Numbered from the stretch's first letter, positions 3,790 to 36,119 are shown. The stretch: DNA of 40,000 nt from Nonomuraea sp. MG754425 (GCF_021699195.1 NZ_SSXE01000005.1:38770-78769), one strand, 5' to 3'. The notes: a model not told the origin generated them from the sequence alone. A program made the numbers and translations.

Positions 3790-3807
3790 GTTGGCGGTTC
3801 CGCTTAC
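3790..3807 (+). promoter_or_regulatory. palindrome-family copy 1 (left arm only) GTTGGCGGTTCCGCTTAC
   Basis: Direct read. Starts 5 nt after the stop at 3784. Confidence 0.6.
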
Positions 3808-3808
3808 G

Positions 3809-3848
3809 GTGGGGGCTCGACCACTTCCCTCGGTGGACGAGCCCCCAC
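3809..3848 (+). terminator. hairpin GTGGGGGCTCG..CGAGCCCCCAC (11 bp + inner 4 bp)
   Basis: Direct read. Downstream of 3398..3784. No U-tract. Confidence 0.5.
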
Positions 3849-3877
3849 TTCGCGTGTGAAAGGGAAGGGCGGCTTGC

Positions 3878-4660
3878 ATGCCGTGGGTTCGTGTCGATGA
3901 CCAGTTCCCGGTCAACCGGAAGGTCCGGCCGCTGTCGGATCGGGCGTTCCGCCTGTATGTGAGCGCGTTGTGCTGGTGCAACGCGAACCTCACCGATGGG
4001 GTGATCGGGGCTCGTGAGCTGATGTACGTGAGTGACGTGTCGTCGCCGCGAAGGTACGCCGATGAGCTGGTGAACGCTGGTCTGTGGTCTAAAACAAACG
4101 ACGGTTGGCAGATTCACGACTACCTCGAATACCAGCATTCAGCGATCAAGGTTCGTGAGGGGCGCGAGGCTAAAAAGGCACGTCAGGAGCGGTGGCTGGA
4201 GTCGCAGAGGCAGACGCGGGAGGCACAGCAAGACGCGTCTCAAGGCGCGTCGCAAGACGTGTCTGGAGACGACCCCCCATCCCATCCCACTCCCATCCCA
4301 TCCCAACAGACGTTCTCTAATCACTCATCTGACGGACCGTATGCAGGTGATCAAGGACGGACGGATGGACAAGATTTCTTGATCGTGGACGAGATGATCC
4401 GCAGCGAACTCGCCGCACTCACCCCCCACCCGATCACCCCCGAGCACGCCGCCCACGTGCGGCAGCTCATCCTCAGTCGAGCCCGCACCCTCGTGAAGAA
4501 CCCCCACCGGTACATCCAGCGCGCACTCCGCCGCGACCCGCACGCCTACCTCCCCGAGCAGCCCGCCGGCTACCGCGGTGTCGGCCGCATGTGCGGCAAG
4601 CATCCGTTCATGGCCGAACCGTGCCGGGCCTGCGCCGCCGATCGCATCGCCAAACCCTGA
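3878..4660 (+). CDS. putative replication-initiator / replisome-organiser-like DNA-binding protein
   Basis: The N-terminal WVRVDDQFPVNRKV..LSDRAFRLYVSALCWCNANLTDG block resembles winged-helix N-domains of phage replication organisers (recognised by eye). SD GAAAGGGAAGG upstream. Followed by a 515-bp non-coding repeat region. Confidence 0.6.
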   Translation: MPWVRVDDQFPVNRKVRPLSDRAFRLYVSALCWCNANLTDGVIGARELMYVSDVSSPRRYADELVNAGLWSKTNDGWQIHDYLEYQHSAIKVREGREAKKARQERWLESQRQTREAQQDASQGASQDVSGDDPPSHPTPIPSQQTFSNHSSDGPYAGDQGRTDGQDFLIVDEMIRSELAALTPHPITPEHAAHVRQLILSRARTLVKNPHRYIQRALRRDPHAYLPEQPAGYRGVGRMCGKHPFMAEPCRACAADRIAKP

Positions 4661-4770
4661 CCACACCCCCGCGCTCGCTCGAAAGATCTCACCCAGGGAC
4701 CACCCGCAGGCACCACGCGGCCGAGCGCTCACCTCCTCGTCGCTGACGGGGTTGACCTCACACCAGCCGA

Positions 4771-4802
4771 GAGAGCGACGCGAACGACGCGAGAGCGACG
4801 CG
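4771..4802. repeat. direct repeat GAGAGCGACGCG x2 (4771-4782, 4791-4802), with CGACGCG x3 at 4776/4785/4796
   Basis: Direct read, within the 515-bp non-coding gap. Confidence 0.8.
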
Positions 4803-5175
4803 CCGCAACACCGCCGGAACAGTCTTCATAGTGGCGCGAGAGACGCGATCAGGCGCGGCCTGGCAGTGAGAGACCATGCCATGATCACAAACGCTCAGAG
4901 ATGCACACAGACAAGATCCACAAGACGGAGTGGGGCCACAACGGCCCCAGGCATGCCGTTGGGGTCGGTGGGGTGCGAACCTGGCGTGTCAGCTTTGGTT
5001 GACGTCTAGAGGTTTGGTCGCGTCCGGAACGCAAGGTGGATTGCGGTGTTTCTGCTGGTGGCGTGAGTGTGCGTTTGTCCTGGTGGGCAACTTGGAGCAC
5101 CAGCTTGACAACGATTTGATCTCGCTATGGTCCGAAATCTGGACAGCTTGTCATGCGCATCACAAGCTCTGAGCC

Positions 5176-5964
5176 ATGCAGATCACACGCACGGCCACAG
5201 CGATCGGGAGGGCGGTCACGACCGCCGCTCTCGCATCCGCCATGGTCATCACAGCAGGCCACATCGCGCCCGGTCTCATGCCGGGCACGACCATGGCCAA
5301 CATGGTCACCCAGGGTGGACGGGTGGCCATGGACCCCACCGTCATGCCGACGTGCCCCGACCAAGACCCCCCGGTCGTGTGCATCGTCGGCCCGCAGGGT
5401 CCCGCCGGACCTCAGGGTGAGACCGGACCTCAGGGACCTCAGGGACCTGCCGGACCGACCGGACCCGTAGGCCCGACTGGCGAGCCCGGACCGACCGGAC
5501 CCGCCGGAAGCACCGGACCCACCGGACCGCGCGGCGAGCAGGGCCCACAAGGGCAGCAAGGGCCCGCCGGGCAGGCTGGCGCATCCGGCAAGCCCGGAAG
5601 CGCCGGACCGACCGGGGAAGCCGGGAAGCCTGGCAGTACCGGACCCATCGGACCGCAGGGACAACCCGGACAGACCGGCATCGACGGCACCACCGCGCAG
5701 AACATCCCCACGGATGTGGAGATGCCAACCCCGCGCATCGCATCCCCCACGGACGAGACCACGCCCACCCCCACGGGCAGCGTGTTCCTGAGCGGCCCAA
5801 GCCTGCCCTCCGCCACGACGACACGCGCCAACGACACTGACAACTGGTTCGCCCCCGTCGCATGGCTCGCGGTGATCCTCACCGGCATCGCCGCAACCTG
5901 TTACGTGGTCTGGCGTCGCCGCCACCGCGAAGCGCAGTTCGTTGACGGTTCCGCCAACGACTAA
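5176..5964 (+). CDS. collagen-like triple-helix-repeat protein with N-terminal signal-like segment and C-terminal TM anchor
   Basis: 33 uninterrupted G-X-Y triplets (aa 72-170). Hydrophobic N-terminus. C-terminal [17 protein letters not shown] followed by RRRHR. Own hairpin terminator. Confidence 0.9.
5389..5685 (+). repeat. coding (GGN-NNN-NNN)x33 collagen repeat
   Basis: Direct read of [15 protein letters not shown]...GQTGID. Confidence 0.95.
5941..5958 (+). promoter_or_regulatory. palindrome-family copy 2 GTTGACGGTTCCGCCAAC
   Basis: Direct read. Occupies the last codons of the collagen-like gene. Confidence 0.6.
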
Positions 5965-5974
5965 CCAACCCCCC

Positions 5975-5999
5975 GCCCCCTCCCACCAGGGGAGGGGGC
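5975..5999 (+). terminator. hairpin GCCCCCTCCC-ACCAG-GGGAGGGGGC
   Basis: 10-bp stem, 11 nt after the collagen-like gene stop. Confidence 0.6.
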
Positions 6000-6022
6000 A
6001 CCTACCCCGAAAGGGACCAGCA

Positions 6023-6688: not shown

Positions 6689-6697
6689 CACCACCCC

Positions 6698-7465: not shown

Positions 7466-7474
7466 GCCGACCAG

Positions 7475-8279: not shown

Positions 8280-9038
8280 ATGTCGAAGGTGTGCCAGGGT
8301 CCGTGCAATCGGGAAGCTCGCGCAGTGTGGGCCGTCTTCCTGCGGGAGCGGGAGGCGCACGCGGACGCGGTCGATCGGTGGCTGGCCGAGGGCGGCGAGG
8401 GGGAGCCGCCGCGCGAGCCCGTCATGCCGGTGGTGGAGTGGCGGCCGGGGGAGTCGCTGCACTGCGGCCGGTGCCGGGCGACGGCGCGGCGTGCGCTGCT
8501 GGTGGTGGACGAGTTGGCCGCGGCGTTGGCGGCGCGGCCGGGCGTGGTGAAGGCCCAGTCGAAGTGGTCAAGGGTGCGCGGCACCAGGCCGCACGGCAGC
8601 ATGTCGGGGGAGGCCGACGTCGTCCACACGGTGACGGGGGAGCTGCTCCGGCTGCGGCGAGACGTCGGCGAGCGCCTGGAGTTGGCCGACCAGGTGCCCG
8701 CCGGCCGGTCCGGGGTGGTGAGGTCTCGGTCGGTGACGTGGCTGGTGGACAAGCTCGACGCGGTGCTCGGCCTGGAGCAGTTGACCGTGGTGTCGGCGGT
8801 GCGCGATCCAGACGATCCGGTGGAGCTCGGCGTGGTCGAGTGGGCGCTCGCCTGGGAATCGAAGCTGCGGCGTCTGGTGGACGACGAGCCCGGCCACACG
8901 GTCGCGCGCTGCCCAGGCTGCGAGATGCGGAGCCTGGAGTGGAGGCAGCGGGCCGGCTACTACGTGTGCGAGAACTGCGGGCGCCACGTCAGCGAGGCGG
9001 ACGCGATGGACCTGGTGTCTGAGGAGGCGGGAGCGTGA
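8280..9038 (+). CDS. hypothetical protein with C-terminal Zn-ribbon (CPGC..CENC)
   Basis: ORF-track entry. High GC3. Four-Cys ribbon at the C-terminus. Confidence 0.7.
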   Translation: MSKVCQGPCNREARAVWAVFLREREAHADAVDRWLAEGGEGEPPREPVMPVVEWRPGESLHCGRCRATARRALLVVDELAAALAARPGVVKAQSKWSRVRGTRPHGSMSGEADVVHTVTGELLRLRRDVGERLELADQVPAGRSGVVRSRSVTWLVDKLDAVLGLEQLTVVSAVRDPDDPVELGVVEWALAWESKLRRLVDDEPGHTVARCPGCEMRSLEWRQRAGYYVCENCGRHVSEADAMDLVSEEAGA

Positions 9039-9594: not shown

Positions 9595-9810
9595 GTCGGG
9601 TGTGGAGATCGACGTCAACCTGTCGCCTCCTGGGCCAGCGGAACCCTCTCTGCGCGGTGGCGCGTCCTGATGGGTTCATGCGCGCCAGCCCTACTCCTTA
9701 CCCCACACCGTGACGGGGGAGTGCCGTACCGGTACCGGGAGTTCCGGCCGGAGTGGCGAGCGACCTGAACCGCTGGCGGGCCGCCCCTCCAGGGCGGCCC
9801 GCAGCTCTAG

Positions 9811-10020
9811 CGGACAGGAACTTGCGCTACTTCAGCAGGGGCCGCGCGAGAACCTCGCTACCCCATCAGCTATACGCAGGTTCAGCCGGACCTGGTGGTG
9901 GAAGTCCTGGTAGACACCGCCCTGGAGGGGCACCGCCACCGACACCCCGTGAGGTACCTCCGGTTTCCCACCGATCTTGACCCGGCAGATGTGGTGGCGC
10001 AGCACGACGGCGTGGTGTGA
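9811..10020 (+). pseudogene. 3'-terminal remnant of an ATP-dependent DNA ligase (LigC/LigD-type OB-fold end)
   Basis: Frame 1 reads ..QPDLVVEVLVDTALEGHRHRHPVRYLRFPTDLDPADV.. then stop. This resembles the conserved ligase C-terminus (VVEV..RFRHP..R.R.D..P). There is no start codon and no N-terminal domains. Upstream frames are broken. Confidence 0.5.
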
Positions 10021-10674
10021 TCAGCTAGCCCTCTGACTCCGAAGCGCGTCGTTGAAGCCTGTCAGGTAGGCGAAGTGATAGTCCGCCATGTCACTGAGCG
10101 TGCAACTGTCCATCAGATCGAAGTGCTCGGCCAACTCCCGCTCCTGCCGGGTCCGCCGACCGTCGAGATAGTCCTGACGACCTAGAGCGGTCATTTTTCG
10201 CTTGATTATGGACCGCTTCAACCTCCCGGCAGGCCATCTCTCTGCCTCGGTCCGGCCCTGCACGAAGGCCCTGTGACAGGCGTTCATGGTGGAAAAGGTC
10301 TTGTGGTCGATGATGCCGAGCATCACGGCTACCGATCCAATGTCACTCGGCAAATAGCACGGAGCCGTGGCGTTCTCGACTCCAGCCTCTCGTGCTGCCC
10401 TCAGCAGGTCTTCGTCTACCTCTTGGCGCACTCGTCCCCCCATGGTCGCTGCGACTGATCGTAGGAGGGGAGCGCCTGCTGACGCGCCCGCCACCTCGCG
10501 ATGATGGGTGCAAAGAGGCCACCTTTTGATCATCTGTTGCCGGAGACAAAGGGGCCATCTCGTTCCGAGGGCCACGAGGGCGACCTTGAGTACACGCTGC
10601 TCGGAGGATGGCCGCTCGCCCGCGACGAGGAGGCCGTCGAGGCGTTCCAGACAAAGGTCGCCAAGCACATCCAC
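10021..10674 (-). CDS. hypothetical protein (start uncertain), lower third-position GC than neighbours
   Basis: Only long frame on either strand here. GTG 10674 is the first start after hairpin 10693-10729. Alternative ATG starts at 10533 and 10443. Many A/T-ending codons suggest a foreign gene. Confidence 0.5.
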   Translation of the reverse strand: MDVLGDLCLERLDGLLVAGERPSSEQRVLKVALVALGTRWPLCLRQQMIKRWPLCTHHREVAGASAGAPLLRSVAATMGGRVRQEVDEDLLRAAREAGVENATAPCYLPSDIGSVAVMLGIIDHKTFSTMNACHRAFVQGRTEAERWPAGRLKRSIIKRKMTALGRQDYLDGRRTRQERELAEHFDLMDSCTLSDMADYHFAYLTGFNDALRSQRAS

Positions 10675-10692
10675 GCCTGACCCGGACGCGAG

Positions 10693-10729
10693 GAAGGCCC
10701 GCCGCGCTTCATCGCGCTGGCGGGCCTTC
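10693..10729 (-). terminator. hairpin GAAGGCCCGCC..GGCGGGCCTTC after the acidic micro-ORF
   Basis: 11-bp stem. Confidence 0.55.
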
Positions 10730-10742
10730 TGCGTGCTAAGGG

Positions 10743-10829
10743 CTACAGGTCGTTGGTCACCTCCTCGGCGTCCTCGGCCTCGGTCGTCTCCGGCTCCTCG
10801 TTCTCGGGGTCGAACGCGTAGTCGGTCAT
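10743..10829 (-). CDS. hyper-acidic micro-protein (28 aa, MTDYAFDPENEEPETTEAEDAEEVTNDL)
   Basis: Not in the ORF track (<60 aa). SD GAAAGGA lies 7 nt before the ATG. All 27 non-start codons end in G/C. Conserved CCTCGCGAAAG leader upstream. Hairpin terminator downstream. Confidence 0.55.
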   Translation of the reverse strand: MTDYAFDPENEEPETTEAEDAEEVTNDL

Positions 10830-10835
10830 GGTGGG

Positions 10836-10849
10836 TCCTTTCGCGAGGG
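10836..10849 (-). promoter_or_regulatory. conserved leader core CCCTCGCGAAAGGA upstream of the acidic micro-ORF
   Basis: Direct read. Shares CCTCGCGAAAG with three other leaders. Confidence 0.45.
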
Positions 10850-10882
10850 AAGAACTTGCTGGCTCTCACAGCATGGCGGTTC

Positions 10883-10900
10883 GTTGGCGGTTCCGCACAC
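10883..10900 (+). promoter_or_regulatory. palindrome-family copy 3 (left arm only) GTTGGCGGTTCCGCACAC
   Basis: Direct read. Lies in divergent control region 10830-11158. Confidence 0.6.
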
Positions 10901-10931
10901 GTTCTCCGAAGACTCGTCGCTGACCTCGAAC

Positions 10932-10949
10932 GTTGGCGGCACCGCCAAC
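10932..10949. promoter_or_regulatory. palindrome-family copy 4, perfect GTTGGCGGCACCGCCAAC
   Basis: Direct read. Perfect 8-2-8 inverted repeat (9-2-9 with the flanking C/G). Confidence 0.7.
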
Positions 10950-11158
10950 GGTTGCGCCCAATGGATCTTCTGTGTCACACTTCGTGCGGGCGGCACCCCT
11001 ATGCCCAAGCGGACCCCCTTGTGAGCTGGGCTTCAGCGGAACGCGGGACTGGACGCGTTTCTGCCGGTGCGTGTGCCGCCCCCACACTTCCCCATTCGGC
11101 CGATCGCGTTCGCGTCTCTCCGGCCATCTCAGCGGCTCAATTTCTCCACGGAAGCGGG

Positions 11159-11410
11159 GTGAACGTGACCACGCTTGCTCCCGTGACCGCCCGTCAGGCC
11201 GCCGAACGGCTGGAGCGTGAGCCGTGCACCATCCGTAAATGGGCGCAGCGCTACCAGGCGCGCGTTCTCGGCCGCGCCGGGCGGGAGACCGTGTTCGATT
11301 TCGCTGACCTGGCCACGATCGAGTGGTGCATCTGGGCCAGCCGTGAGGTCCCGGCCACGGCGGAGGACCGCGACGAGCTACGCGCCGCCCGCCGAGCAGC
11401 CACCGCGTGA
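11159..11410 (+). CDS. MerR/excisionase-family HTH DNA-binding protein
   Basis: GTG 11159 (or 11165) after GGAAG. TARQAAERLEREPCTIRKWAQR is a typical HTH_17/Xis-like helix-turn-helix. Confidence 0.7.
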   Translation: MNVTTLAPVTARQAAERLEREPCTIRKWAQRYQARVLGRAGRETVFDFADLATIEWCIWASREVPATAEDRDELRAARRAATA

Positions 11411-11808: not shown

Positions 11809-12042
11809 ATGCAGATCAAGCCCCGCGTCCGCATCGTCGGCGCCGAACGCCACCAACTCGCCCAGGTCCTCGCCGGCCGCTACGCGGCGGGCGAGTCGAT
11901 CCGCGAGCTCGCGGTGTCGGTCGGCCGCTCATACGGGTTCATCCATACGCTGCTGGAGGAGGCGGGCGCCGAGATCCGGCACCGCGGCGGCAACCAGCGC
12001 ACCCGCCCCACCGCCGCGTCGGCGGCCGAGGCCGGGAAGTGA
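11809..12042 (+). CDS. small HTH DNA-binding protein (actinobacterial 'IVGAER..SIRELA..GRSYGFIH' family)
   Basis: SD GAAGGAG 8 nt upstream. ESIRELAVSVGRSYGFIHTLLEEAG is a clear HTH. Confidence 0.8.
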   Translation: MQIKPRVRIVGAERHQLAQVLAGRYAAGESIRELAVSVGRSYGFIHTLLEEAGAEIRHRGGNQRTRPTAASAAEAGK

Positions 12043-15342: not shown

Positions 15343-16326
15343 TCATTCGTCCACTGTGAGCTTGTCGATCGCGGCCTGGCGGTCGGCGTCGGTGGGCAGC
15401 GTGTAGCGACGAGCGGTCTCGAGAGAGTGGCCCAGCAGTTCGGCGATCGTGACGACGTCCACACCTTCGCGGGCGAGTTTCGTGCCGAGGGTGTGCCGGA
15501 GCACGTGGGTGGTGAAGTCTTCGTCGCGGCCGACTTCGATCCCGGCCCGGTCGGCGATGCCGTTGAGCACGTCGGTGGCGGCGCGGGCGGACAGCCGGCG
15601 ACCGCGCACGTTGAGGAACAGCGCCTTGGACTCGTCGGTACCGCGTAGTGTGGCCCGCTCCTTCAGCCATGTCTCCAACTCGGCGCGGAGCTTGGCGTGC
15701 AGGTTGACCTCGCGATACTTGCCGCTCTTGCCCATGCGGACGATGAGCACGCCCTTGCGGGCGCTGATGCGGAGGTCATCGAGGTCGAACGCGACGAGCT
15801 CGTGGATGCGAGTGCCCGCGTAGAAGGCGGTGTAGCCCATGGCGCGGTCGCGCGGAGAGGACAGTTCGGCCTCGCGCAGGAATCTCACTTGGGCACGCTG
15901 ATCGAGGGCGCGAGGGGCGAGGTTCGGCAGCTTGGTGCGCTTGGCGGTGGCTGGACCCAGGCCGAGGCGGCGGTTGAAGTCGTCGATGGCGGTCAGGTGC
16001 GCGTTTACCGTGGTCGGCTTGCGCTTGAGCACGGTCAGGAGATGGGCGCGGTAGTCGCGTGCGGCCCAGTCGCGGGCGGCGGGGTCGGTGAGGGGGTCGC
16101 CGTCGAGGTTGGTCGCGTCGAGCCAGGCGAGGTACTGGCGGACGCGGGAGAGGTAGTTCCGGCGGGTGTCGTCGTCGAGTCGGAGGAGCGGGTCGGTGAC
16201 GGCGGTTTCGTAGTCGGCGTAGACGCCCGCGTAGCGGCCGGGGACGGGTGTGGCAGTGGCTCCTGGGCGTCGTCGTGTGGGGCGTTGGGACGTTACGGGA
16301 TCTTGGTCTCTAATATCAGAAGTCAT
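15343..16326 (-). CDS. int: tyrosine integrase / site-specific recombinase (XerC/D-like)
   Basis: Catalytic pattern AGTRIHEL .. HVLRHT .. LLGHS..TARRYT (R..HxxR..H..Y). ATG 16326 is preferred over 16437 because the upstream stretch holds a palindrome and promoter elements. Confidence 0.9.
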   Translation of the reverse strand: MTSDIRDQDPVTSQRPTRRRPGATATPVPGRYAGVYADYETAVTDPLLRLDDDTRRNYLSRVRQYLAWLDATNLDGDPLTDPAARDWAARDYRAHLLTVLKRKPTTVNAHLTAIDDFNRRLGLGPATAKRTKLPNLAPRALDQRAQVRFLREAELSSPRDRAMGYTAFYAGTRIHELVAFDLDDLRISARKGVLIVRMGKSGKYREVNLHAKLRAELETWLKERATLRGTDESKALFLNVRGRRLSARAATDVLNGIADRAGIEVGRDEDFTTHVLRHTLGTKLAREGVDVVTIAELLGHSLETARRYTLPTDADRQAAIDKLTVDE

Positions 16327-16417
16327 TTCGGCGTCCTGTTCGCCTCGGGGAATCGGAATATCAGAAGCCGCACCTGGACCGCGCTTCTTATATTCACAAG
16401 TATCTGAAGTTTGGCAT

Positions 16418-16441
16418 CTCGTTGGCGGAAGCGCCAACGAG
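16418..16441. promoter_or_regulatory. palindrome-family copy 5, CTCGTTGGCG-GAAG-CGCCAACGAG (perfect 10-4-10)
   Basis: Direct read. Lies between int and the early operon and overlaps a -35-like TTGGCG. Confidence 0.7.
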
Positions 16442-16480
16442 CGCTACGATCGCGAGTAAATCAGTCTCCTCGCGAAAGAG
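16422..16480 (+). promoter_or_regulatory. putative early-operon promoter (-35 TTGGCG 16422-16427, -10 TACGAT 16445-16450) plus leader core CCTCGCGAAAGAG (16468-16480)
   Basis: 17-nt spacing. The -35 is embedded in palindrome copy 5. Confidence 0.4.
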
Positions 16481-16486
16481 ATGATC

Positions 16487-16750
16487 ATGGATCACATCGA
16501 GACCGGAGGGGCCGCCCGCTACGGCCGCTCCATGCGGCCGGTCGCGGTCGGTGACACGGTGGACGAACTCGAACTCTCTGCACTGGACAAGGCGCGGGCG
16601 GCATTTCCCCCGAACGTTCGCCTGGAGATTGTGCCGGACTACGAGATCTACACGGTCCCCGGTGACGGCGGCTTCAGTTCCTTCCCCGGAGTTCTGGAGT
16701 CGGGCAAGACGTACTACAGCCACATCACGGTACGCGAGGTGATCGCGTGA
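16487..16750 (+). CDS. hypothetical protein (87 aa), first gene of early operon
   Basis: ATG 16487 is 6 nt after GAAAGAG in the conserved leader. ORF-track 16481..16750. Confidence 0.7.
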   Translation: MDHIETGGAARYGRSMRPVAVGDTVDELELSALDKARAAFPPNVRLEIVPDYEIYTVPGDGGFSSFPGVLESGKTYYSHITVREVIA

Positions 16751-18957: not shown

Positions 18958-19174
18958 GTATTCCCTTCGATTGAATGAGGGCGTGAGGCCGGTTGACTAA
19001 GCGGTGTGGCACCGCACTCTTCACCATCAATCACCGAAGATTGCTTGGACAGGACAGCGGCCGGACATTCGGCGGACATTTCGCCACGTCGGTACCTGGT
19101 CGTGCAGCCTCGTGGCTCCCAGCAGCTCACTGGCTGGCGGATCCAGACACCACACGCGCGATTTGGAGGTTTCG

Positions 19175-19789: not shown

Positions 19790-19800
19790 AAGGAGCCGCT

Positions 19801-20895
19801 GTGCGCGCGGACATCACGCTCGCTACCCCCGTACGCCGCACCGCCAGAGTCCTCCAGTTGCAGGGCATGTTCGACGTGCCGCTGGAGGAGAAACTCAGTG
19901 CCTCGTGGTCGGTGAACCTGCCGATCGAGGAACGGAAGTGGAACGTCGGCCTGCTCGTCGGCCCGTCCGGGTCCGGGAAGTCCACCATCGCGAACGAGCT
20001 GTGGCCCGGCCGGCTTGTCAAAGAGCACCCGTGGGGGGATCGGGCGCTCGTGGACGACTTCCCGCTGGGCATGGGTATCAAGGACATCGTCGGCCTGCTG
20101 ACCGCCGTGGGACTGTCGAGCCCGCCCGCGTGGCTCCGGCCGTACAAGACGCTCAGCAACGGGGAGGCGTTCCGCGCGAGCATGGCCCGCGCGCTCGCCG
20201 AGCACAAGGGTCTGCTCGTCGTGGACGAGTTCACGTCCGTGGTGGACCGGCAGGTCGCCAAGGTCGCTTCTCACGCTGTGGCGAAGGCTGTCCGCCGCGA
20301 TGGGCGGCAGCTCGTCGCGGTGACGTGCCACTACGACGTGGTGGACTGGTTGCAGCCGGACTGGGTGTACGACGTGGCCACCGCGGCGTTCAAGTGGAGG
20401 TCGGTTCAACCCCGGCCACAGCTCCAGCTCGACATCCACGCGGCCGACCGGAGCCTCTGGCAGATGTTTCGCCACCATCACTATCTGAGCAGCGACATCA
20501 GCAATGCCGCCCAGTGCTTCGCCGGGTGCATCGACGGCAAAACGGTAGCTTTCGCTGCCTACAGGCACTTTCAGCATCCGAAGGTGCGTGACATCAAACT
20601 CGGTCACCGCCTGGTGGTGCTGCCGGACTTCCAAGGACTGTCGATCGGCGGGCACCTGGAAGACTGGATCGGCCAGCACCTGCATGCGCAGGGGTTCCGG
20701 TACCGGAATGTGACGTCGCACCCGGCGTTGATCGCCTACATGGAGCGCAGTGCTCGGTGGCAGCGGCAGGGCCGCGCCACCAAGCTCCACACGTCCTCGA
20801 AGCGGCGGAACCAGCACGCGAACACGCTGGACCCGCGCCGGCTTGGGCTGGTGTCGTTCGAGTACATCCCGCCATCGCGGCCGACGCATCAATAG
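19801..20895 (+). CDS. ABC-type ATPase fused to a GNAT-like acyltransferase domain
   Basis: GTG 19801 after GAAGGAG. Walker A GPSGSGKST (19960-19986), signature LSNGE, Walker B LLVVDEF, H-loop TCHYD. C-terminal RLVVLPDFQGLSIGG..GFRY resembles GNAT motif A. Confidence 0.75.
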   Translation: MRADITLATPVRRTARVLQLQGMFDVPLEEKLSASWSVNLPIEERKWNVGLLVGPSGSGKSTIANELWPGRLVKEHPWGDRALVDDFPLGMGIKDIVGLLTAVGLSSPPAWLRPYKTLSNGEAFRASMARALAEHKGLLVVDEFTSVVDRQVAKVASHAVAKAVRRDGRQLVAVTCHYDVVDWLQPDWVYDVATAAFKWRSVQPRPQLQLDIHAADRSLWQMFRHHHYLSSDISNAAQCFAGCIDGKTVAFAAYRHFQHPKVRDIKLGHRLVVLPDFQGLSIGGHLEDWIGQHLHAQGFRYRNVTSHPALIAYMERSARWQRQGRATKLHTSSKRRNQHANTLDPRRLGLVSFEYIPPSRPTHQ

Positions 20896-22649: not shown

Positions 22650-22667
22650 GTTGGCGGAACCGGCAAC
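22650..22667 (+). promoter_or_regulatory. palindrome-family copy 6 GTTGGCGGAACCGGCAAC
   Basis: Direct read. Starts 3 nt after the stop at 22646, upstream of terS. Confidence 0.6.
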
Positions 22668-31656: not shown

Positions 31657-31674
31657 GTTGGCGGTCCCGTCAAC
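31657..31674 (+). promoter_or_regulatory. palindrome-family copy 7 GTTGGCGGTCCCGTCAAC
   Basis: Direct read. Starts 7 nt after the scaffold stop, upstream of the major capsid gene. Confidence 0.6.
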
Positions 31675-31701: not shown

Positions 31702-32640
31702 ATGGCTAACACGTTTCTCACCCCGTCGATCATTGCCCGGCAGGCGCTGGCGAACCTGTACGAGACCACGGTCATGAGCCAACTGGTTCACCGGGACTAC
31801 GAGCAGGAGTTCGTGAACCGGATCGGCGACACGATCACGATCAGGAAGCCCGCGACGTTCGAGGCCAAGCAGTTCAACAGGACGCTGGGCATCGAGATTC
31901 AGAACGCGACCGAGGGATCGATCCCGATCACCCTGGACAAGTTCGTGGACGTCTCCTTCGCCGTGACCAGCGAGGAGTTGACGCTCGACATCATCGACTT
32001 CAACGCCCAACTCCTGGCCCCCGCGGTCGAGGCCATCGCGCAGAAGATCGACCGCGACATCCTTACCCTGCGGTCCGACATTGTCCAGCGGGTCGGCAAG
32101 GCCGGCACCACGGTGACCGGTGTGACCGGCACCAACGAGTGGGAGTGGGACAACCCGCGCGTCGCGATCGACGCCAGGCGCGTGCTCAACCAGCGCAACG
32201 TGCCGCCGACCGACCGGAACATCGTGGTCGGGCCGGAGATCGAGGCGCAGTGGCTTGGCGACCCGCTGTTCCACCAGGCCGACACGAGGGGTGACACCGA
32301 GGGTCTGCGTGAGGCCAACCTCGGTCGAAGAATCTTTGGGCACGACGGCTACCAGACGCAGAACATCAAGGGCCCGTCCGGGACGCCGACGGCTGGCCAG
32401 CCGAACACGGAGATCGGCGTCGCATTTCATAAGACGGCGTTCGCTTTGGTGACCAGACCCCTGGTTCTCCCACAGGGCGCCGCGAACGCGCACGTCGAGT
32501 CCTACAAGGGGTTCGCGTTGAGGGTGGTCATGGGCTACGACCAGACCAAGAAGCAGGACGTCGTCTCCATCGACACGCTCTACGGAGTGAAGACCCTCGA
32601 CCCGAACCGCGCGGTGCTGATCCACGGGGTCGCGGCCTGA
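31702..32640 (+). CDS. major capsid protein
   Basis: 312 aa. Position after the scaffold gene. MANTFLTPSIIARQALANL.. is an N-terminus typical of P22-coat/HK97-fold actinophage capsid proteins (by eye). Confidence 0.85.
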   Translation: MANTFLTPSIIARQALANLYETTVMSQLVHRDYEQEFVNRIGDTITIRKPATFEAKQFNRTLGIEIQNATEGSIPITLDKFVDVSFAVTSEELTLDIIDFNAQLLAPAVEAIAQKIDRDILTLRSDIVQRVGKAGTTVTGVTGTNEWEWDNPRVAIDARRVLNQRNVPPTDRNIVVGPEIEAQWLGDPLFHQADTRGDTEGLREANLGRRIFGHDGYQTQNIKGPSGTPTAGQPNTEIGVAFHKTAFALVTRPLVLPQGAANAHVESYKGFALRVVMGYDQTKKQDVVSIDTLYGVKTLDPNRAVLIHGVAA

Positions 32641-33297: not shown

Positions 33298-33306
33298 GGG
33301 CTCGTC

Positions 33307-33702: not shown

Positions 33703-33705
33703 CCC

Positions 33706-34017: not shown

Positions 34018-34388
34018 CGCAACGCGGCATCGACGTGGACGTGCGGCTGGACATGCACGTCAGCCCCGAAGCGCTGGAGACTAAGGCGCGGGCGGCGATC
34101 GAGCGGGGCTTGACGCAGGCGACCGAGCACGTGCTGACCTCGACCGAGCCCAAGGTGCCATGGCAGACCGGCGACCTGGAACGGTCGGGGTCTGCGGTCG
34201 TGGACCGGTCGAACCTCGACGGCATCGTGTCGTTCGACCAGCCGTACGCGGTCGCCCAGCACGAAAACCTCGATTGGGAGCACCCGCTCAAGGGCGAGCC
34301 GAAGTTCCTGGAGAGGACCCTGTACGAGGAGGCCGCGACGGTGCGGGACGTGGTGGCCAAGGCGGTGCGGAAGGCGCTCGGCGGATGA
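34014..34388 (+). CDS. HK97 gp10-like tail-completion protein
   Basis: ATGA overlap. VPWQTGDLERSGS matches the gp10-family P..TG.L..S motif. Confidence 0.6.
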   Translation: MTQRGIDVDVRLDMHVSPEALETKARAAIERGLTQATEHVLTSTEPKVPWQTGDLERSGSAVVDRSNLDGIVSFDQPYAVAQHENLDWEHPLKGEPKFLERTLYEEAATVRDVVAKAVRKALGG

Positions 34389-34846
34389 CCACCATGCCGG
34401 GCGGCCAGTTCTCCCGCGCGTTGCTGAACGGGCTCGCCGCGTTCCTCGCCAACCGAGGAGTGGGCGACTGGAACCCGGTCGGCACGTACACGCCGAACCA
34501 GCTCGCGCTGACGATCGGCGGCCTGCCCTCCACGCCGGACACGGCGATCTCGCTGGCGGTGTACGGCACCGCTGGCGACGACGTGGAGGGCGGCGACTCG
34601 ACCGTCCTGGTGCAACTCCGGATGCGGGCCAAGGGCGACCCGCGCGACGTCGGCGACTACGCCGACGCCGTGTTCGCCGTGCTGCACGGGCTGACCGAGA
34701 CGCGGCTCGCCTCGGGGGTGCTGGTGCTGCTCGCGCGGCGGACGGTGGTGGCGCCGCCGTCGCGTGACTCCTCCGGCCGGTGGGAGCGGGCCGACAGCTA
34801 CGAGCTGATGGTGCACTGGCCCACCCCGCAGCGGGACGACGACTGA
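34385..34846 (+). CDS. tail terminator-like protein
   Basis: ATGA overlap. LAAFLANRGVGDWNPVGTY..IGGLPSTPD..ISLAVYG pattern typical of actinophage tail terminators (by eye). Confidence 0.6.
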   Translation: MTTMPGGQFSRALLNGLAAFLANRGVGDWNPVGTYTPNQLALTIGGLPSTPDTAISLAVYGTAGDDVEGGDSTVLVQLRMRAKGDPRDVGDYADAVFAVLHGLTETRLASGVLVLLARRTVVAPPSRDSSGRWERADSYELMVHWPTPQRDDD

Positions 34847-34920
34847 CCCTCGTCCCCTTCTCTTCCTTCTTCGCGGGCCTGGCACGACCAGGGTTCGCGC
34901 GCACGAACGGAGAAACGATC

Positions 34921-35400
34921 ATGGCTCTGGTGAGCATGCTCGCCAAGCACTGGTGCATGGACGTCAACATCGCGGGAATCGGAGGGCCCGCCCCGTCGTG
35001 GACGCGCGTCCGGGCCCTGTCCAAGTGGGAGAAGACCACCGACGACAACGTCGAGGACGACGGTGACTTCGATGACGAGTCCGGGTACGGCTCCGACGTC
35101 ATCACCGAACGCAAGTGGAAGATCGAGGCCGAGGGGCGCCGGAAGCGGCAGGCCACCGAGGTGTTCGTGCCCGACGCCGGCCAGGAGTACATCCGCAAGG
35201 CCGCCCGTAGGGTCGGGCTGGGCGCGTTCATTGAGGTTCGCTGGTACCGGCGGGACGGCTCCGACGAGGCGTACCAGGGCATGTGCCAGGTCAACGAGTT
35301 CACGGTCGGTGGCGAGAAGACCGACCTGGAGCCGTTCAGCTTCACCCTGCTCGGGTCGGGCGAAGACGTCGAGATCGACAACCCGCTGGCGGGCCCGTGA
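34921..35400 (+). CDS. major tail protein
   Basis: ATG 34921 after GGAGAAA. Lies immediately upstream of the chaperone frameshift pair. Confidence 0.65.
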   Translation: MALVSMLAKHWCMDVNIAGIGGPAPSWTRVRALSKWEKTTDDNVEDDGDFDDESGYGSDVITERKWKIEAEGRRKRQATEVFVPDAGQEYIRKAARRVGLGAFIEVRWYRRDGSDEAYQGMCQVNEFTVGGEKTDLEPFSFTLLGSGEDVEIDNPLAGP

Positions 35401-35882
35401 TGGCGCAGTTCAGGAACCTTGACGAGTTCTTCGACCCGTCGCTGCGACTCCCGGTGGGCAGCAAGACGTACGTGATCGCGCCGCCGGACGGCGAGGTGGG
35501 CCTGCTGGTGCAGCGGCTCATGCACGCCGGGATCGCGGCCGAGGCCGGGCAGGACATCGATGCCGAAGGGCTCAACGACCTGGCCAAGTCGGTGCTGTCC
35601 AACGACAGCGCGGAGACGGACCTGTACCCGCGCATCCTGGGCCCGGTCTGGGACGAGTTGTTCGCCGACAAGCTCGACTGGCCGGTCATCCAGCACATCG
35701 GCGAGACCGCGATGCTGTGGATCGCAGCCGGGACGGACGCCGCCGCGAAGCACTGGGAGGCCGGGGCGGGGGAAGCGGAGGCCCCGAACCGGAAGGCTCG
35801 CCGGGCGGCGGCGGCGCAGGCCCGATCGACCCGGTCACGGGGCTCCGCGAGTGGTACGACCCGGACGACGGGCTCGGACTGA
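35400..35882 (+). CDS. tail assembly chaperone (G form)
   Basis: TGATG overlap with the major tail gene stop. Precedes the tape measure gene. Its 3' end overlaps an ORF in the -1 frame. Confidence 0.75.
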   Translation: MAQFRNLDEFFDPSLRLPVGSKTYVIAPPDGEVGLLVQRLMHAGIAAEAGQDIDAEGLNDLAKSVLSNDSAETDLYPRILGPVWDELFADKLDWPVIQHIGETAMLWIAAGTDAAAKHWEAGAGEAEAPNRKARRAAAAQARSTRSRGSASGTTRTTGSD

Positions 35883-36100
35883 CCGGCGGCCCGGCCGTGT
35901 CGTGGCTGGACCTGCTGACGCGGTGGGACCTGATCGAGGCCGACCTGCACCAGGTGTACGGGATCGACCTCGACCGGTCCGGGGCCCTGCGCGGCCGGTC
36001 GTGGCGGTGGCTGCGTACCCGGATCGGCGGGCTGCGCGTGTGCGACTCCCGAATCGCACGCGCGCTGGACCAGAGCGACGATCGCCCCCGCCACTGTTGA
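35400..36100 (+). CDS. tail assembly chaperone, -1 frameshift-extended form (G-T)
   Basis: The -1 frame is open over 35717..36100. G-run GGGGGAA at 35768-35774 is a candidate slip site. The exact site is not established. Confidence 0.6.
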
Positions 36101-36101
36101 C

Positions 36102-36119
36102 GTTGGCGGTTTCGCCAAC
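36102..36119 (+). promoter_or_regulatory. palindrome-family copy 8 GTTGGCGGTTTCGCCAAC
   Basis: Direct read. Starts 1 nt after the G-T stop, upstream of the tape measure gene. Confidence 0.6.

What the first reader, a model, noticed from the sequence alone, without database searches (positions are those of the whole stretch)
3790..36119. Eight copies of an 18-bp palindrome (GTTGGCGG-NN-CCGCCAAC) at gene boundaries across the whole element
Copies read directly from the sequence:
- 3790-3807 GTTGGCGGTTCCGCTTAC
- 5941-5958 GTTGACGGTTCCGCCAAC
- 10883-10900 GTTGGCGGTTCCGCACAC
- 10932-10949 GTTGGCGGCACCGCCAAC (perfect 8-2-8)
- 16421-16438 GTTGGCGGAAGCGCCAAC (perfect 10-4-10 over 16418-16441)
- 22650-22667 GTTGGCGGAACCGGCAAC
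- 31657-31674 GTTGGCGGTCCCGTCAAC
- 36102-36119 GTTGGCGGTTTCGCCAAC

Copies 1-3 share a longer left arm, TTCGTTG(G/A)CGGTTCCGC. None lies in the body of a gene.

Five copies start within 8 nt after, or end 3 nt before, the stop codon of a plus-strand gene (stops at 3784, 5964, 22646, 31649, 36100). These positions include the sites just upstream of terS, the major capsid gene and the tape measure gene. The other three lie in the two divergent control regions that bracket the integrase/lysogeny block.

Under uniform composition an 8-mer is expected about once per 65 kb per strand. The arm sequence, not only its pairing, is conserved. That argues for a sequence-specific (dimeric HTH?) binder rather than generic terminators.

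The dispersed intergenic placement recalls the stoperator logic of cluster A mycobacteriophages, but with a different, palindromic site. The alternative is conserved 7-bp-stem/4-nt-loop RNA hairpins used for processing or 3' stabilisation.
Basis: partly seen in the sequence, partly recalled or inferred. Interest (0 to 1): 0.7.

Follow-up and report, generated by a model that had tools for sequence, protein, structure and literature searches.

The report
Dispersed palindromic operator-like sites in Nonomuraea prophage
A temperate phage-like element of the actinomycete Nonomuraea carries a short DNA palindrome at its control regions and at many gene boundaries; related prophages keep it at the same places with lineage-specific spelling, so it is most likely the target of a phage-encoded DNA-binding regulator, which is a known kind of system in a new, untested family.

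Summary
All eight copies sit at the stated coordinates, against 0.58 expected by chance. None lies in a gene body.

The window matches Nonomuraea sp. MG754425 and is a temperate phage-like element. Related Nonomuraea, Sphaerisporangium and Planotetraspora prophages keep the palindrome at syntenic gene boundaries, as an island of conservation in diverged spacers.

The new result is that the core GCGG-NN-CCGC is invariant while the outer arm bases differ by lineage (GTTG, GATA, GAAA, ATTG, GTCA, GCCA). Non-orthologous sites within one genome share their lineage's spelling (permutation 0/2000). Prophages living in the same host carry different spellings.

Unpaired positions show no bias toward G·U wobble overall. 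One site keeps a mid-stem mismatch in all type I relatives. There are no U-tracts, and separate long hairpins serve as terminator-like structures. The 16421 copy overlaps the -35 of a conserved -10-like hexamer.

Best reading (about 0.5): these are operators of a phage-encoded dimeric regulator, used at promoters and as stoperator-like sites inside the lytic operons. An RNA hairpin role remains possible (about 0.2).

This is a new member of a known kind, alongside phiC31 CIRs, cluster A stoperators and cluster O repeats.

The parts
3790..3807 (.). Palindrome copy 1, GTTGGCGGTTCCGCTTAC. It starts 6 nt after the stop at 3784 and is followed by a long GC-rich hairpin.
   Evidence: (orthologues in A, C and L112 keep the same CTTAC right arm)
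5941..5958 (.). Palindrome copy 2, GTTGACGGTTCCGCCAAC. It lies inside the last 8 codons of the collagen-like ORF 5176-5964 and is followed by a GC-rich hairpin.
10883..10900 (.). Palindrome copy 3, GTTGGCGGTTCCGCACAC. It is the left member of the double site in the divergent control region.
   Evidence: L112 orthologue has the same CACAC arm
10932..10949 (.). Palindrome copy 4, a perfect 8-2-8 (9-2-9 with flanks). It directly abuts the conserved non-coding block upstream of the MerR-like/HTH_58 operon.
16421..16438 (.). Palindrome copy 5 (10-4-10 over 16418-16441), between the integrase (-) and the early operon (+). Its left arm TTGGCG (16422-16427) lies 17 bp upstream of a conserved TACGAT.
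16445..16450 (+). -10-like hexamer TACGAT of the putative early promoter. It is conserved at a fixed distance from copy 5 in the window, relative A and L112.
   Evidence: It falls below the threshold of the consensus scan, so this is an inference.
22650..22667 (.). Palindrome copy 6, GTTGGCGGAACCGGCAAC, 4 nt after the stop at 22646 and 21 nt before the putative terS start. The position 5/14 mismatch is kept in all type I relatives.
31657..31674 (.). Palindrome copy 7, between the scaffold-position gene and the major capsid gene. The orthologous site is present in 25 related prophages with lineage-specific arms.
36102..36119 (.). Palindrome copy 8, 2 nt after the stop at 36100 of the frameshifted tail-chaperone ORF and upstream of the tape measure gene.
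39295..39312 (.). Possible decayed ninth copy, ATTGTCGGAAGCGTCAAC. It is intergenic and starts 7 nt after the stop at 39287.
   Evidence: 5 mismatches to the 20-bp consensus; status uncertain
10950..11006 (+). Conserved non-coding block (GGTTGCGC...TGTGTCACACTTCGTGCGGGCGGCACCCCTATGCC) next to copy 4. It is likely the promoter or leader of the MerR-like/HTH_58 operon.
   Evidence: no Rfam or tRNA hit
11809..12042 (+). HTH_58 protein (77 aa), a weak candidate binder. It always lies downstream of the site plus conserved block.
   Evidence: Against: its recognition helix is nearly invariant across types.
11159..11410 (+). MerR/Xis-like HTH protein (83 aa), the weaker candidate.
   Evidence: It is absent in type II locus L115, which still has the site.
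8280..9038 (+). Protein of 252 aa with a TFIIB-like zinc ribbon, just upstream of the immunity-region sites. It diverges by type (82% within type I, 49% between I and II, replaced in V and VI). It is an untested candidate.
3809..3848 (+). Long GC-rich hairpin after copy 1, terminator-like and distinct from the palindrome.
5975..5999 (+). GC-rich hairpin after copy 2.

Best explanation
The palindromes are DNA operators for a phage-encoded, sequence-specific regulator that binds as a dimer. The regulator is most likely the lysogeny (immunity) repressor or a global silencer of that kind.

Each monomer would read one half-site, (C)G-N3-GCGG, on one face of the helix, because half-site centres are about 10 bp apart across an A/T-rich 2-bp centre.

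Proposed actions:
- At 16421 the bound protein would occlude the -35 and spacer of the early promoter.
- The pair at 10883/10932 would control the divergent region in front of the MerR-like/HTH_58 operon.
- The copies placed 2-8 nt after stop codons inside the rightward lytic operons (before terS, the capsid gene, the tape measure gene and others) would act as roadblocks or silencing points. These would keep read-through transcription out of lytic genes in the lysogen, as cluster A stoperators do.
- The outer arm bases, which differ between lineages, would set immune specificity.

**Shown:** enrichment, intergenic placement, syntenic conservation, concerted lineage-specific spelling, and the lack of terminator features.

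**Inferred:** protein binding, the dimeric mode, repression, the roadblock action, the link to immunity and the identity of the binder.
For: - **Enrichment and placement.** 8 copies against 0.58 expected, 0 of 100 shuffles. Mismatch distribution is bimodal. 7 of 8 are fully intergenic, P about 5e-6.
- **Phylogenetic footprint.** At the terS, capsid and tape-measure junctions the motif is an invariant island in spacers that otherwise diverge among relatives with 70-89% nucleotide identity.
- **Lineage-specific spelling.** Across 25 related prophages the scaffold/capsid junction always holds an 8-2-8 palindrome with the invariant core GCGG-NN-CCGC but lineage-specific outer arms.
- **Concerted evolution.** Other, non-orthologous sites of the same genome carry the same spelling. 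With a type-blind search pattern, outer-triplet similarity is 1.64 of 3 within genomes against 0.76 between lineages, 0 of 2000 permutations.
- **Co-resident prophages differ in spelling.** N. basaltis carries types I, II and VI. [Actinomadura] parvosata carries type I and a V-like type. This fits heteroimmunity and argues against a host factor.
- **Fixed spacing and A/T-rich centre.** The spacer is 2 bp and the centre is T/A at position 9 in 39 of 41 sites and A/T at position 10 in 35 of 41.
- **No RNA-strand signature overall.** Among 75 sites, unpaired positions are G·U on the sense strand 19 times, G·U on the antisense strand 15 times, and other mismatches 43 times.
- **Conserved mid-stem mismatch.** The terS site keeps a G·G or G·A mismatch in all eight type I genomes.
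- **Sequence kept where pairing is lost.** Type V sites keep GT..GCGG..CCGC..AC while losing pairing at positions 3 and 4.
- **Not terminators.** No U-tract follows any copy, and the terminator scans over the two control regions (10700-11300 and 16250-16600) found nothing. Separate long hairpins follow copies 1 and 2.
- **Promoter overlap.** Copy 5 overlaps a -35-like TTGGCG placed 17 bp from a TACGAT hexamer that is conserved in three relatives.
- **Distribution.** No copy lies inside the leftward integrase block at 12.2-16.3 kb.
- **Precedent.** Dispersed repressor sites with invariant positions plus specificity positions are documented for cluster A phages (PMC5559632, PMC6550527, PMC9283540).
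Against: - No binding protein is identified.
- The HTH_58 recognition helix (RSYGF[IV]HxLLEE) is nearly invariant across types II, V and VI. Its one variable residue also varies within type I.
- The MerR-like helix differs within type I, and the gene is missing in a type II relative.
- Chromosomal HTH_58 genes are not flanked by the motif.
- No CI-like repressor is recognisable beside the double site. The divergent gene there is a 28-codon ORF in the window and an acidic protein in relatives.
- The capsid site of relative C lost 2 central bp yet stays a perfect palindrome. This change in half-site spacing should hurt a dimer but not a hairpin.
- At the tape-measure site, T2->C is compensated by A17->G in relative B, with a U·G intermediate in relative A.
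- At the capsid junction, complementarity extends into flanks of variable sequence. Wobble pairs there favour the sense strand 22 to 8, although the sequences are not phylogenetically independent.
- The consistent placement 2-8 nt after stop codons is not required by a roadblock model.
- The promoter at 16421 is weak by consensus (8 of 12 matches) and was not called by the scan.
- Spelling is less uniform within type II, V and VI genomes than within type I.
Confidence: 0.5

Rival explanations
1. The copies act in RNA. Each is transcribed into a 7-8 bp stem with a 4-nt loop just after a stop codon. The hairpin serves as a processing site, a 3'-end stabiliser or a partial terminator that sets the relative amounts of the cistrons. 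It may be recognised by a phage-specific RNA-binding protein or nuclease, which would explain the shared sequence.
For: - All copies fold, at -5 to -18 kcal/mol.
- Five of eight start 2-8 nt after a stop codon, and the same holds in relatives.
- There is strong covariation at the capsid junction: 92% of cells paired, 7 of 11 pairs changed on both sides, 0 of 500 shuffles. Three flanking pairs of variable sequence are included.
- Wobble pairs at that site favour the sense strand 22 to 8.
- There is one clean compensatory change with a U·G intermediate.
- A 2-bp central deletion keeps the palindrome.
Against: - A hairpin alone does not explain why non-orthologous sites in one genome share arm sequence and switch together between lineages.
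- Reading base identity inside a regular RNA stem is uncommon (established knowledge).
- The loop bases, the usual recognition point, are not conserved.
- Over all 75 sites there is no sense-strand wobble bias (19 against 15), and most unpaired positions are true mismatches (43).
- A mid-stem mismatch is conserved at the terS site.
- Type V sites lose outer pairing but keep sequence.
- No U-tracts are present. Mycobacterial RNA polymerase needs a U-tract at intrinsic terminators (own knowledge, Czyz et al. 2014).
- Stronger hairpins sit right beside copies 1 and 2.
- Three copies lie in divergent promoter regions, one over a -35.
- No Rfam family matches.
- Covariation of a palindrome is equally expected for a dimer site.
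Confidence: 0.2
2. The copies are recombination joints. They would be recognition or crossover sites for a phage-borne recombinase, or simply short shared sequences that channel homologous exchange. Either way, gene modules would be swapped between related and co-resident prophages at these points.
For: - Homology between the window and relatives starts or stops at the palindrome at 3790, 5941 and 10932. At 16421 a serine resolvase module replaces the integrase module in L112.
- 3 of 85 BLAST segment ends fall within 12 nt of a site, against 0.7 expected.
- Inverted arms around a 2-bp A/T-rich centre resemble serine-recombinase crossover sites (own knowledge of hix, gix and res site I).
Against: - Breakpoints tend to be intergenic anyway, so the excess is modest.
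- The central dinucleotide differs among copies (TT, CA, AA, TC), which would block serine-recombinase exchange between them.
- Most relatives carry only a tyrosine integrase near the sites, and those enzymes use 6-8 bp overlaps.
- Gene order is collinear across relatives, with no inversions or deletions between copies.
- Breakpoints at a conserved 20-mer are an expected by-product of any conserved site.
Confidence: 0.07
3. The copies are targets of a host factor, or a REP-like host repeat that the prophage has picked up.
For: - Placement is intergenic and after stop codons, as for REP elements.
- The host chromosome could not be scanned here.
Against: - Three prophages in one N. basaltis genome carry three different spellings. 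The same holds for [Actinomadura] parvosata.
- An exact-match scan of 2.9 million viral contigs returned 40 stretches. Thirteen of them came from four contigs of this phage family, and the rest were single hits.
- No IS200/RAYT-type gene was seen in any annotated locus.
Confidence: 0.05
4. The copies are binding sites of a late-gene activator or parts of phage-specific promoters that start transcripts for terS, the capsid gene and the tape measure gene.
For: - Several copies precede highly expressed late genes.
- A protein with a zinc ribbon, recalling the P2 Ogr-type activators, is encoded nearby.
Against: - Sequence between the palindrome and the next start codon is not conserved among relatives, so there is no -10 or other promoter element.
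- The motif centre lies only about 36 nt from the capsid ATG, which has a conserved Shine-Dalgarno sequence. This leaves no room for a transcription start site placed 41-55 nt downstream.
- Copies also follow early and accessory genes and lie in the lysogeny control regions.
Confidence: 0.05

Closest known systems
Cluster A mycobacteriophage/Gordonia phage operators and stoperators (L5 gp71-type repressor); R4/phiJoe-type Streptomyces phages
   Same: - There are many copies of one short site, at promoters and at short intergenic gaps throughout the lytic operons of a temperate actinophage.
- Some positions are invariant and others differ between lineages and set immune specificity (PMC5559632, PMC6550527, PMC9283540, PMC10276819).
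   Different: - Stoperators are 13-14 bp, asymmetric, oriented with transcription and bound by a monomer that uses two domains (PMC9283540). The sites here are palindromic (8-2-8, up to 11-2-11).
- Density is lower, about 1 per 5 kb.
- No gp71-like repressor was recognised, and binding is untested.
phiC31 conserved inverted repeats (CIRs), operators of the c repressor
   Same: A palindromic operator of about 17 bp occurs in many highly conserved copies in intergenic regions of a temperate phage of a mycelial actinomycete, including at the repressor gene's own control region. This rests on my own knowledge of Ingham et al. 1994 and Wilson et al. 1995. The papers could not be retrieved.
   Different: - The sequence and host differ.
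- No homologue of the phiC31 repressor was identified.
- The sites here hug stop codons inside the late operon.
- Lineage-specific spelling has not, to my knowledge, been described for CIRs.
Cluster O mycobacteriophage 17-bp repeats (TGTTCGG-NNN-CCGAACA)
   Same: - These are short repeats with dyad symmetry and an A/T-rich centre, dispersed through the genome.
- Most are not at promoters.
- They are predicted to bind a dimeric protein, and their function is unknown (PMC4351075).
   Different: - The geometry is 7-3-7 rather than 8-2-8.
- There are more than 30 copies, and about a third lie within genes.
- The arms are invariant.
- The phages are not obviously temperate.
- The authors saw no link to rearrangements. 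Here several homology breakpoints coincide with sites.
KorB operators (OB) of plasmid RK2 / ParB-parS
   Same: Twelve copies of a 13-bp palindrome are spread over a replicon and are bound by a dimeric HTH protein that silences many operons (own knowledge). The HTH_58 model superposes on the KorB and DeoR DNA-binding domains, though only weakly.
   Different: - The ParB_N proteins of this family (window 19163-19789 and those in L113-L119) have no recognisable HTH region.
- The structural match of a three-helix bundle is not specific (all E > 0.5).
Cluster K start-associated sequences (SAS/ESAS)
   Same: These are conserved short repeats at gene boundaries in actinophage operons (PMC3203893, cited through PMC4351075).
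   Different: SAS are asymmetric and sit 3-8 bp before start codons. The sites here track the upstream stop codon and lie 21-88 nt before the next start.

Membership tests
Cluster A-type stoperator system | Many copies of one short site at promoters and in short intergenic gaps across the phage genome | tested here: met
   8 copies in 40 kb, 7 of them fully intergenic. Relatives show the same pattern.
Cluster A-type stoperator system | Site is asymmetric (13-14 bp) and oriented with the direction of transcription | tested here: not met
   The site is an 8-2-8 palindrome and the centre shows no orientation rule.
Cluster A-type stoperator system | Invariant positions plus positions that differ between heteroimmune lineages | tested here: met
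   The core GCGG-NN-CCGC is invariant and the outer bases are lineage-specific. Whether these lineages are actually heteroimmune is untested.
Cluster A-type stoperator system | Sites are bound by the immunity repressor, which blocks elongation | not testable with these tools
   This needs EMSA or ChIP and transcription assays. No gp71-like protein was recognised in Pfam or PHROG scans.
phiC31 CIR operators | Conserved inverted repeat of about 17 bp in multiple intergenic copies | tested here: met
   The resemblance is in form only. The CIR sequence itself could not be retrieved for comparison.
phiC31 CIR operators | One copy acts as the autoregulatory operator at the repressor gene | tested here: inconclusive
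   A double site plus a conserved block precedes the MerR-like/HTH_58 operon in types I, II and V. The repressor is not identified.
Cluster O 17-bp dyad repeats | 7-3-7 repeat TGTTCGGNNNCCGAACA, more than 30 copies, about a third inside genes | tested here: not met
   The sequence, spacing, copy number and placement all differ.
Intrinsic (Rho-independent) terminator | GC-rich hairpin followed directly by a U-tract | tested here: not met
   No T-run follows any copy. The terminator scan found none at the two control regions. The stems fold at only -5 to -18 kcal/mol, while separate hairpins next to copies 1 and 2 dominate local folds of -42 and -34 kcal/mol.
Known RNA family (Rfam) | Match to a curated covariance model | tested here: not met
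   0 matches at gathering thresholds over the whole window. No tRNA or tmRNA was found.
REP/BIME-type host repeats with a RAYT transposase | Hundreds of copies throughout the host chromosome and a cognate Y1 transposase | not testable with these tools
Indirect evidence against: three spellings in three prophages of one host, and no RAYT-like gene in the annotated loci.
ParB-parS / KorB-OB | Palindromic sites bound by a ParB-family protein that carries an HTH domain | tested here: inconclusive
   ParB_N proteins are present in relatives, and a divergent one lies at window 19163-19789. They consist of the N-terminal domain, an acidic linker and a small C-terminal domain, with no recognisable HTH.
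Serine-recombinase crossover site | Inverted arms around a 2-bp crossover dinucleotide that is identical between partner sites, plus a cognate serine recombinase | tested here: not met
   The centres differ among copies (TT, CA, AA, TC). The window and most relatives encode a tyrosine integrase, and only L112 has a resolvase.

The most novel reading that the evidence does not exclude
The palindromes could be a phage-borne 'address code' with two jobs. A type-specific protein would read the variable outer bases to silence lytic operons. The same invariant-core sites, placed exactly at module borders right after stop codons, would be the preferred joints at which co-resident prophages of different types exchange gene modules. 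This could happen by site-directed or micro-homology recombination. In that case the repeat both regulates the genome and shapes its mosaic structure.
Probability: 0.07. Interest if true: 0.8.

Novelty: new member of a known kind. Interest (0 to 1): 0.42.

Why it matters
**What it would add.** If confirmed, this would be a third, independent and palindromic version of the 'one repressor, many dispersed sites' way of silencing a prophage. The other two are cluster A stoperators and phiC31 CIRs. It would come from a host genus (Nonomuraea, Streptosporangiaceae) with almost no phage biology.

**Why the system is useful for study.** The family offers a natural series of at least six site spellings on a constant core, and several of them occur in the same host. 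That makes it a convenient system for asking how operator and repressor specificity co-evolve and how polylysogens avoid cross-talk.

**Practical uses.** The motif is a simple marker for delimiting and typing these prophages, which sit on 65-113 kb contigs. It could also supply orthogonal repressor and operator parts for actinomycete engineering.

**Caveat.** The general principle is already known, and nothing here has been tested at the bench.

Tried and rejected
**Searches that found nothing**
- A near-identity search of the window against the phage collection gave no match.
- Exact look-ups of window proteins in the assembly index were not on record, so the rest of the 112,881-bp contig and the host chromosome could not be read.
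- Rfam, tRNA and the consensus promoter and terminator scans returned nothing.
- Retrieval of the phiC31 CIR papers failed.

**Hunt for the binder**
- Pfam, PHROG and NCBIfam scans of about 60 ORFs gave only two HTH proteins and a zinc-ribbon protein.
- The HTH_58 recognition helix does not track site type.
- The AlphaFold model of HTH_58 is a plain three-helix HTH (pLDDT 72) with only weak, non-specific fold matches.
- Chromosomal HTH_58 genes lack the motif nearby.
- The divergent gene beside the double site is variable and acidic.
- The ParB_N proteins lack an HTH.

**Tests of function**
- Testing whether every copy is a -35 element showed that only 16421 has a -10-like hexamer at the right distance.
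- The sense-strand wobble test was negative overall and positive only at the capsid junction.
- The excess of homology breakpoints at sites is modest.

**Scope of the motif**
- A de novo search for recurrent palindromes in the Streptomyces relatives and the type VII group found none in the structural regions. The system therefore seems confined to the Nonomuraea-group clade.
- My first automatic motif picker was misled by GC-rich chance palindromes and was replaced by type-specific scans and a type-blind core pattern.

Full report
**1.

The expectation is 0.58, and 0 of 100 dinucleotide-preserving shuffles reach 8.
- The flanks show that the motif is really about 20 bp, (T)C-GTTGGCGG-WW-CCGCCAAC-G(R).
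- Scored against this 20-mer, the window has eight sites at <=2 mismatches, none at 3, and a background that starts at 4 and is entirely coding.
- The isolated half-site GTTGGCGG occurs only twice outside palindromes. By my calculation that is about the number expected at 68% GC, so it is the palindrome that is enriched.
- Seven copies are fully intergenic, where 13% of positions are (P about 5e-6). Copy 2 lies in the last eight codons of a collagen-repeat ORF.
- A possible decayed ninth copy lies at 39295-39312, 7 nt after a stop codon.

**2. What the window is**

- The DNA is 64-73% GC.
- It encodes the following:
  - a tyrosine integrase (15343-16326, minus strand);
  - two small HTH proteins (11159-11410, MerR/Xis-like; 11809-12042, Pfam HTH_58);
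  - a large terminase, a portal protein and a minor capsid protein;
  - a P22-type major capsid protein (31702-32640);
  - a DUF7426 tail chaperone, followed by a 748-aa gene in the tape-measure position.
- The capsid protein is 64-66% identical to those of Streptomyces phages Keanu, Galactica and Hiyaa. No phage record matches at the DNA level.
- The HTH proteins match proteins of Nonomuraea sp. MG754425 on a 112,881-bp contig: HTH_58 at 100% identity and the MerR/Xis-like protein at 99% over 90% of its length.
- Relatives were found in five IMG/VR contigs from isolate genomes. A further 57 loci came from reference genomes, mostly Nonomuraea, plus Sphaerisporangium, Planotetraspora, Thermocatellispora, Streptosporangium and, more distantly, Streptomyces.

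**3. Conservation at the same places**

- Relatives that share 70-89% nucleotide identity with the window carry the palindrome at the orthologous junctions. These are:
  - before terS;
  - between the scaffold-position gene and the capsid gene;
  - before the tape measure gene;
  - beside the integrase;
  - in the divergent control region;
  - after the two leftmost genes.
- In alignments, the motif is an uninterrupted block of identity inside spacers that otherwise differ in sequence and length. Even site-specific defects are inherited:
  - the CTTAC right arm of copy 1;
  - the CACAC arm of copy 3;
  - a position 5/14 mismatch at the terS site, kept in all eight type I genomes.

**4. The main new result: a constant core with lineage-specific arms**

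At the scaffold/capsid junction of 25 prophages there is always an 8-2-8 palindrome about 45 nt before the capsid start. The core GCGG-NN-CCGC is essentially invariant. The outer bases differ by lineage:

| Type | Half-site | Where seen |
|---|---|---|
| I | GTTGGCGG | the window and eight relatives |
| II | GATAGCGG | |
| III | GAAAGCGG | |
| IV | (A/G)ATTGCGG | |
| V | GTCAGCGG | |
| VI | GCCAGCGG | |
| VII | GCAAGCGG | possible type, seen at other junctions |

- Other, non-orthologous sites of each genome use the same lineage spelling. These lie at about +1.6, +3.1, +4.4 and +5.8 kb and at -9 kb from the capsid start, and in the immunity region.
- I re-detected sites with a pattern that ignores the outer bases. 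Outer triplets of different sites then match 1.64 of 3 positions within a genome against 0.76 between lineages, with 0 of 2000 permutations as extreme.
- Type I is the most uniform. Types II, V and VI tolerate more variation at positions 2-4.
- The Streptomyces relatives lack the motif and show no other recurrent palindrome.
- One host can hold several types. N. basaltis carries types I, II and VI on three contigs. [Actinomadura] parvosata carries type I and a V-like type. Strain B19D2 carries type V and possibly type VII.

A repeat that is homogeneous within a genome, switches as a set between related genomes, and differs between prophages of one cell points to a phage-encoded, sequence-reading trans factor. 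It does not fit a passive structure or a host element.

**5. DNA site or RNA hairpin?**

Palindromic covariation is strong at the capsid junction: 92% of cells pair, 7 of 11 pairs change on both sides, and 0 of 500 shuffles match. A dimer-binding site predicts this as well as a hairpin does, so I looked for features that separate the two.

*Favouring a DNA site:*
- Among 75 sites, unpaired positions are G·U on the sense strand 19 times, G·U on the antisense strand 15 times and true mismatches 43 times. There is no sense-strand wobble tolerance.
- The terS site keeps a mid-stem G·G or G·A mismatch in every type I relative.
- Type V sites keep the sequence frame GT..GCGG..CCGC..AC while losing pairing at positions 3 and 4.
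- The spacer is fixed at 2 bp and is A/T-rich.
- No copy is followed by a T-run, and the terminator scan finds nothing at the two control regions.
- Copies 1 and 2 are each followed by a separate, much longer GC-rich hairpin that looks like the actual terminator.
- Three copies lie in divergent promoter regions.
- No Rfam family matches.

*Favouring an RNA hairpin:*
- At the tape-measure site, relative A has A17->G (U·G), and relative B has T2->C together with A17->G. This is a clean compensatory path.
- In relative C the capsid site lost two central base pairs yet remains a perfect 7-2-7 palindrome.
- At the capsid junction, wobble pairs favour the sense strand 22 to 8 and pairing extends into flanks of variable sequence. 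The sequences are not independent, and in types II-IV those flanks (GCC...GGC or GCT...AGC) are themselves conserved.
- The copies consistently begin 2-8 nt after a stop codon.

On balance I put a DNA-protein site at roughly 0.5-0.6 and an RNA role at about 0.2. The two are not mutually exclusive.

**6. Links to transcription control**

- At copy 5, the left arm supplies TTGGCG 17 bp upstream of TACGAT (16445-16450).
  - The hexamer and the downstream leader are conserved in the window, relative A and L112.
  - In L112 the DNA to the left is unrelated, because a serine resolvase replaces the integrase there.
  - A protein on the palindrome would cover the -35 and spacer of this putative early promoter. 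The match is weak by E. coli consensus and was not called by the scan, so the promoter is an inference.
- None of the other copies has a -10-like hexamer at the corresponding distance. The sequence between the palindrome and the next start codon is not conserved. The other copies are therefore not promoters.
- Copies 3 and 4 precede a strongly conserved non-coding block (10950-11006).
  - This block is found in front of the MerR-like/HTH_58 operon in types I, V and VI.
  - It lies directly in front of HTH_58 in a type II relative that lacks the MerR-like gene.
- No copy lies within the leftward integrase block at 12.2-16.3 kb.

**7. Who binds?**

This remains unresolved.

- **HTH_58.**
  - It is the only DNA-binding protein always found downstream of the site plus block.
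  - Its model is a simple three-helix HTH (pLDDT 72) with weak resemblance to the DeoR and KorB DNA-binding domains.
  - Its recognition helix is nearly invariant across types II, V and VI, and the single variable residue also varies within type I.
  - The family is large (more than 3,400 hits) and includes chromosomal members that are not flanked by the motif.
  - If it binds at all, it more plausibly reads the invariant core or the conserved block.
- **MerR/Xis-like protein.** Its helix varies within type I, and the protein is dispensable in type II.
- **Divergent gene beside the double site.** It is a 28-codon ORF in the window and an acidic 98-182 aa protein in relatives.
- **Syntenic upstream protein.** A protein with a TFIIB-like zinc ribbon is 82% identical within type I and 49% between types I and II. 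It is replaced by an unrelated protein in types V and VI. This fits a type-specific factor, but it also fits ordinary clade divergence.
- **ParB_N proteins.** They have no recognisable HTH.

**8. Comparison with known systems**

- **Cluster A stoperators.** The logic matches: sites at promoters and gene boundaries, with invariant positions plus specificity positions (PMC5559632, PMC6550527). Those sites, however, are asymmetric, oriented and read by a monomer (PMC9283540).
- **phiC31 CIRs.** In form the sites are closest to these palindromic repressor operators, which occur in many intergenic copies. This rests on my own knowledge, because the papers were not retrievable.
- **Cluster O repeats.** The 7-3-7 repeats TGTTCGGNNNCCGAACA occur in more than 30 copies, have no known function and are predicted to bind a dimer (PMC4351075).
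- **Other comparisons.** The sites fail the tests for intrinsic terminators, Rfam families and serine-recombinase crossover sites. Membership in the REP and ParB/KorB classes could not be settled.

**9. Verdict**

The finding is real and under selection, and it extends to a whole clade of Streptosporangiaceae prophages. The most likely mechanism is a dispersed palindromic operator set for a phage-encoded dimeric regulator with lineage-specific specificity. This is a new member of a known kind of system.

The binder, the regulatory effect and the host-chromosome distribution remain to be tested. Interest is moderate. The concerted switching of site spelling and the presence of different spellings in one host are the points most worth following up.

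Noticed in passing
window 10950-11006 (extending weakly to 11158): A strongly conserved non-coding block (GGTTGCGC...TGTGTCACACTTCGTGCGGGCGGCACCCCTATGCC) has its own mini-palindrome GTGT-N-ACAC. It is kept upstream of the MerR-like/HTH_58 operon in site types I, II, V and VI and is more conserved than neighbouring genes. It has no Rfam hit. It may be a promoter and operator for a conserved regulator, or a leader RNA.
   Followed up: partly
window 9600-10830: This stretch has lower GC and no clean ORF. Positions 10501-10680 are a remnant of the C-terminus of a 230-aa protein that is intact in L112. A 28-codon ORF (10829-10743) with a good Shine-Dalgarno sequence sits where relatives have an acidic 98-182 aa gene with an internally repeated module. 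This flank of the immunity region looks decayed in this element.
   Followed up: partly
window 3809-3848 and 5975-5999: Long GC-rich hairpins lie immediately after palindrome copies 1 and 2. Local folds are -42 and -34 kcal/mol. The orthologous hairpin after copy 1 is conserved in relatives A, C and L112. These are likely the real terminator-like structures.
   Followed up: partly
whole element; loci L046, L047, L048, L056, L062, L063, L066, L068; plasmid hits H41-H47: Many relatives sit on contigs of 90-113 kb with the integrase internal rather than at an end. Distant relatives of the portal and capsid genes lie on 85-92 kb plasmids of Rhodococcus, Prescottella and Streptomyces. Others are clearly chromosomal. 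The family may include plasmid-like prophages about twice the size of this window.
   Followed up: no
L112:15003-15900 versus window 15343-16440: A small serine resolvase replaces the tyrosine integrase in the [Actinomadura] parvosata relative, and homology resumes exactly at the palindrome. Homology also breaks at copies 1, 2 and 4 in other relatives. 3 of 85 BLAST segment ends fall within 12 nt of a site, against 0.7 expected.
   Followed up: partly
L003/L049:9960-9975: The capsid-junction site of Nonomuraea sp. SYSU D8015 has lost two central base pairs but remains a perfect palindrome, GTTGGCG-GT-CGCCAAC.
   Followed up: no
L059, L061, L065/L117 (N. basaltis); L112, L118 ([A.] parvosata); L064/L114, L076 (strain B19D2): Single host genomes carry two or three related prophages, each with a different palindrome spelling. 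This is consistent with heteroimmune co-residents.
   Followed up: partly
window 35397-35882 and 35717-36100: Two overlapping ORFs lie in different frames upstream of the tape measure gene (DUF7426 chaperone plus an extension). This is the usual arrangement for a programmed frameshift. Palindrome copy 8 starts 2 nt after the stop of the extended frame.
   Followed up: no
window 2428-3405, 5176-5964, 19163-20895: Three accessory genes were noted:
- a YspA/SLOG-NADAR fusion protein;
- a collagen triple-helix repeat protein;
- a divergent ParB_N-like protein followed by a P-loop ATPase-GNAT fusion that is conserved next to terS in relatives.
   Followed up: no
window 8280-9038; L115:8980-9627; L113:6710-7432; L114:7098-7829: The protein just upstream of the immunity-region site carries a TFIIB-like zinc ribbon in types I and II (49% identity between them). 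It is replaced by an unrelated 240-aa protein in types V and VI. In L115 the palindrome overlaps its stop codon.
   Followed up: partly
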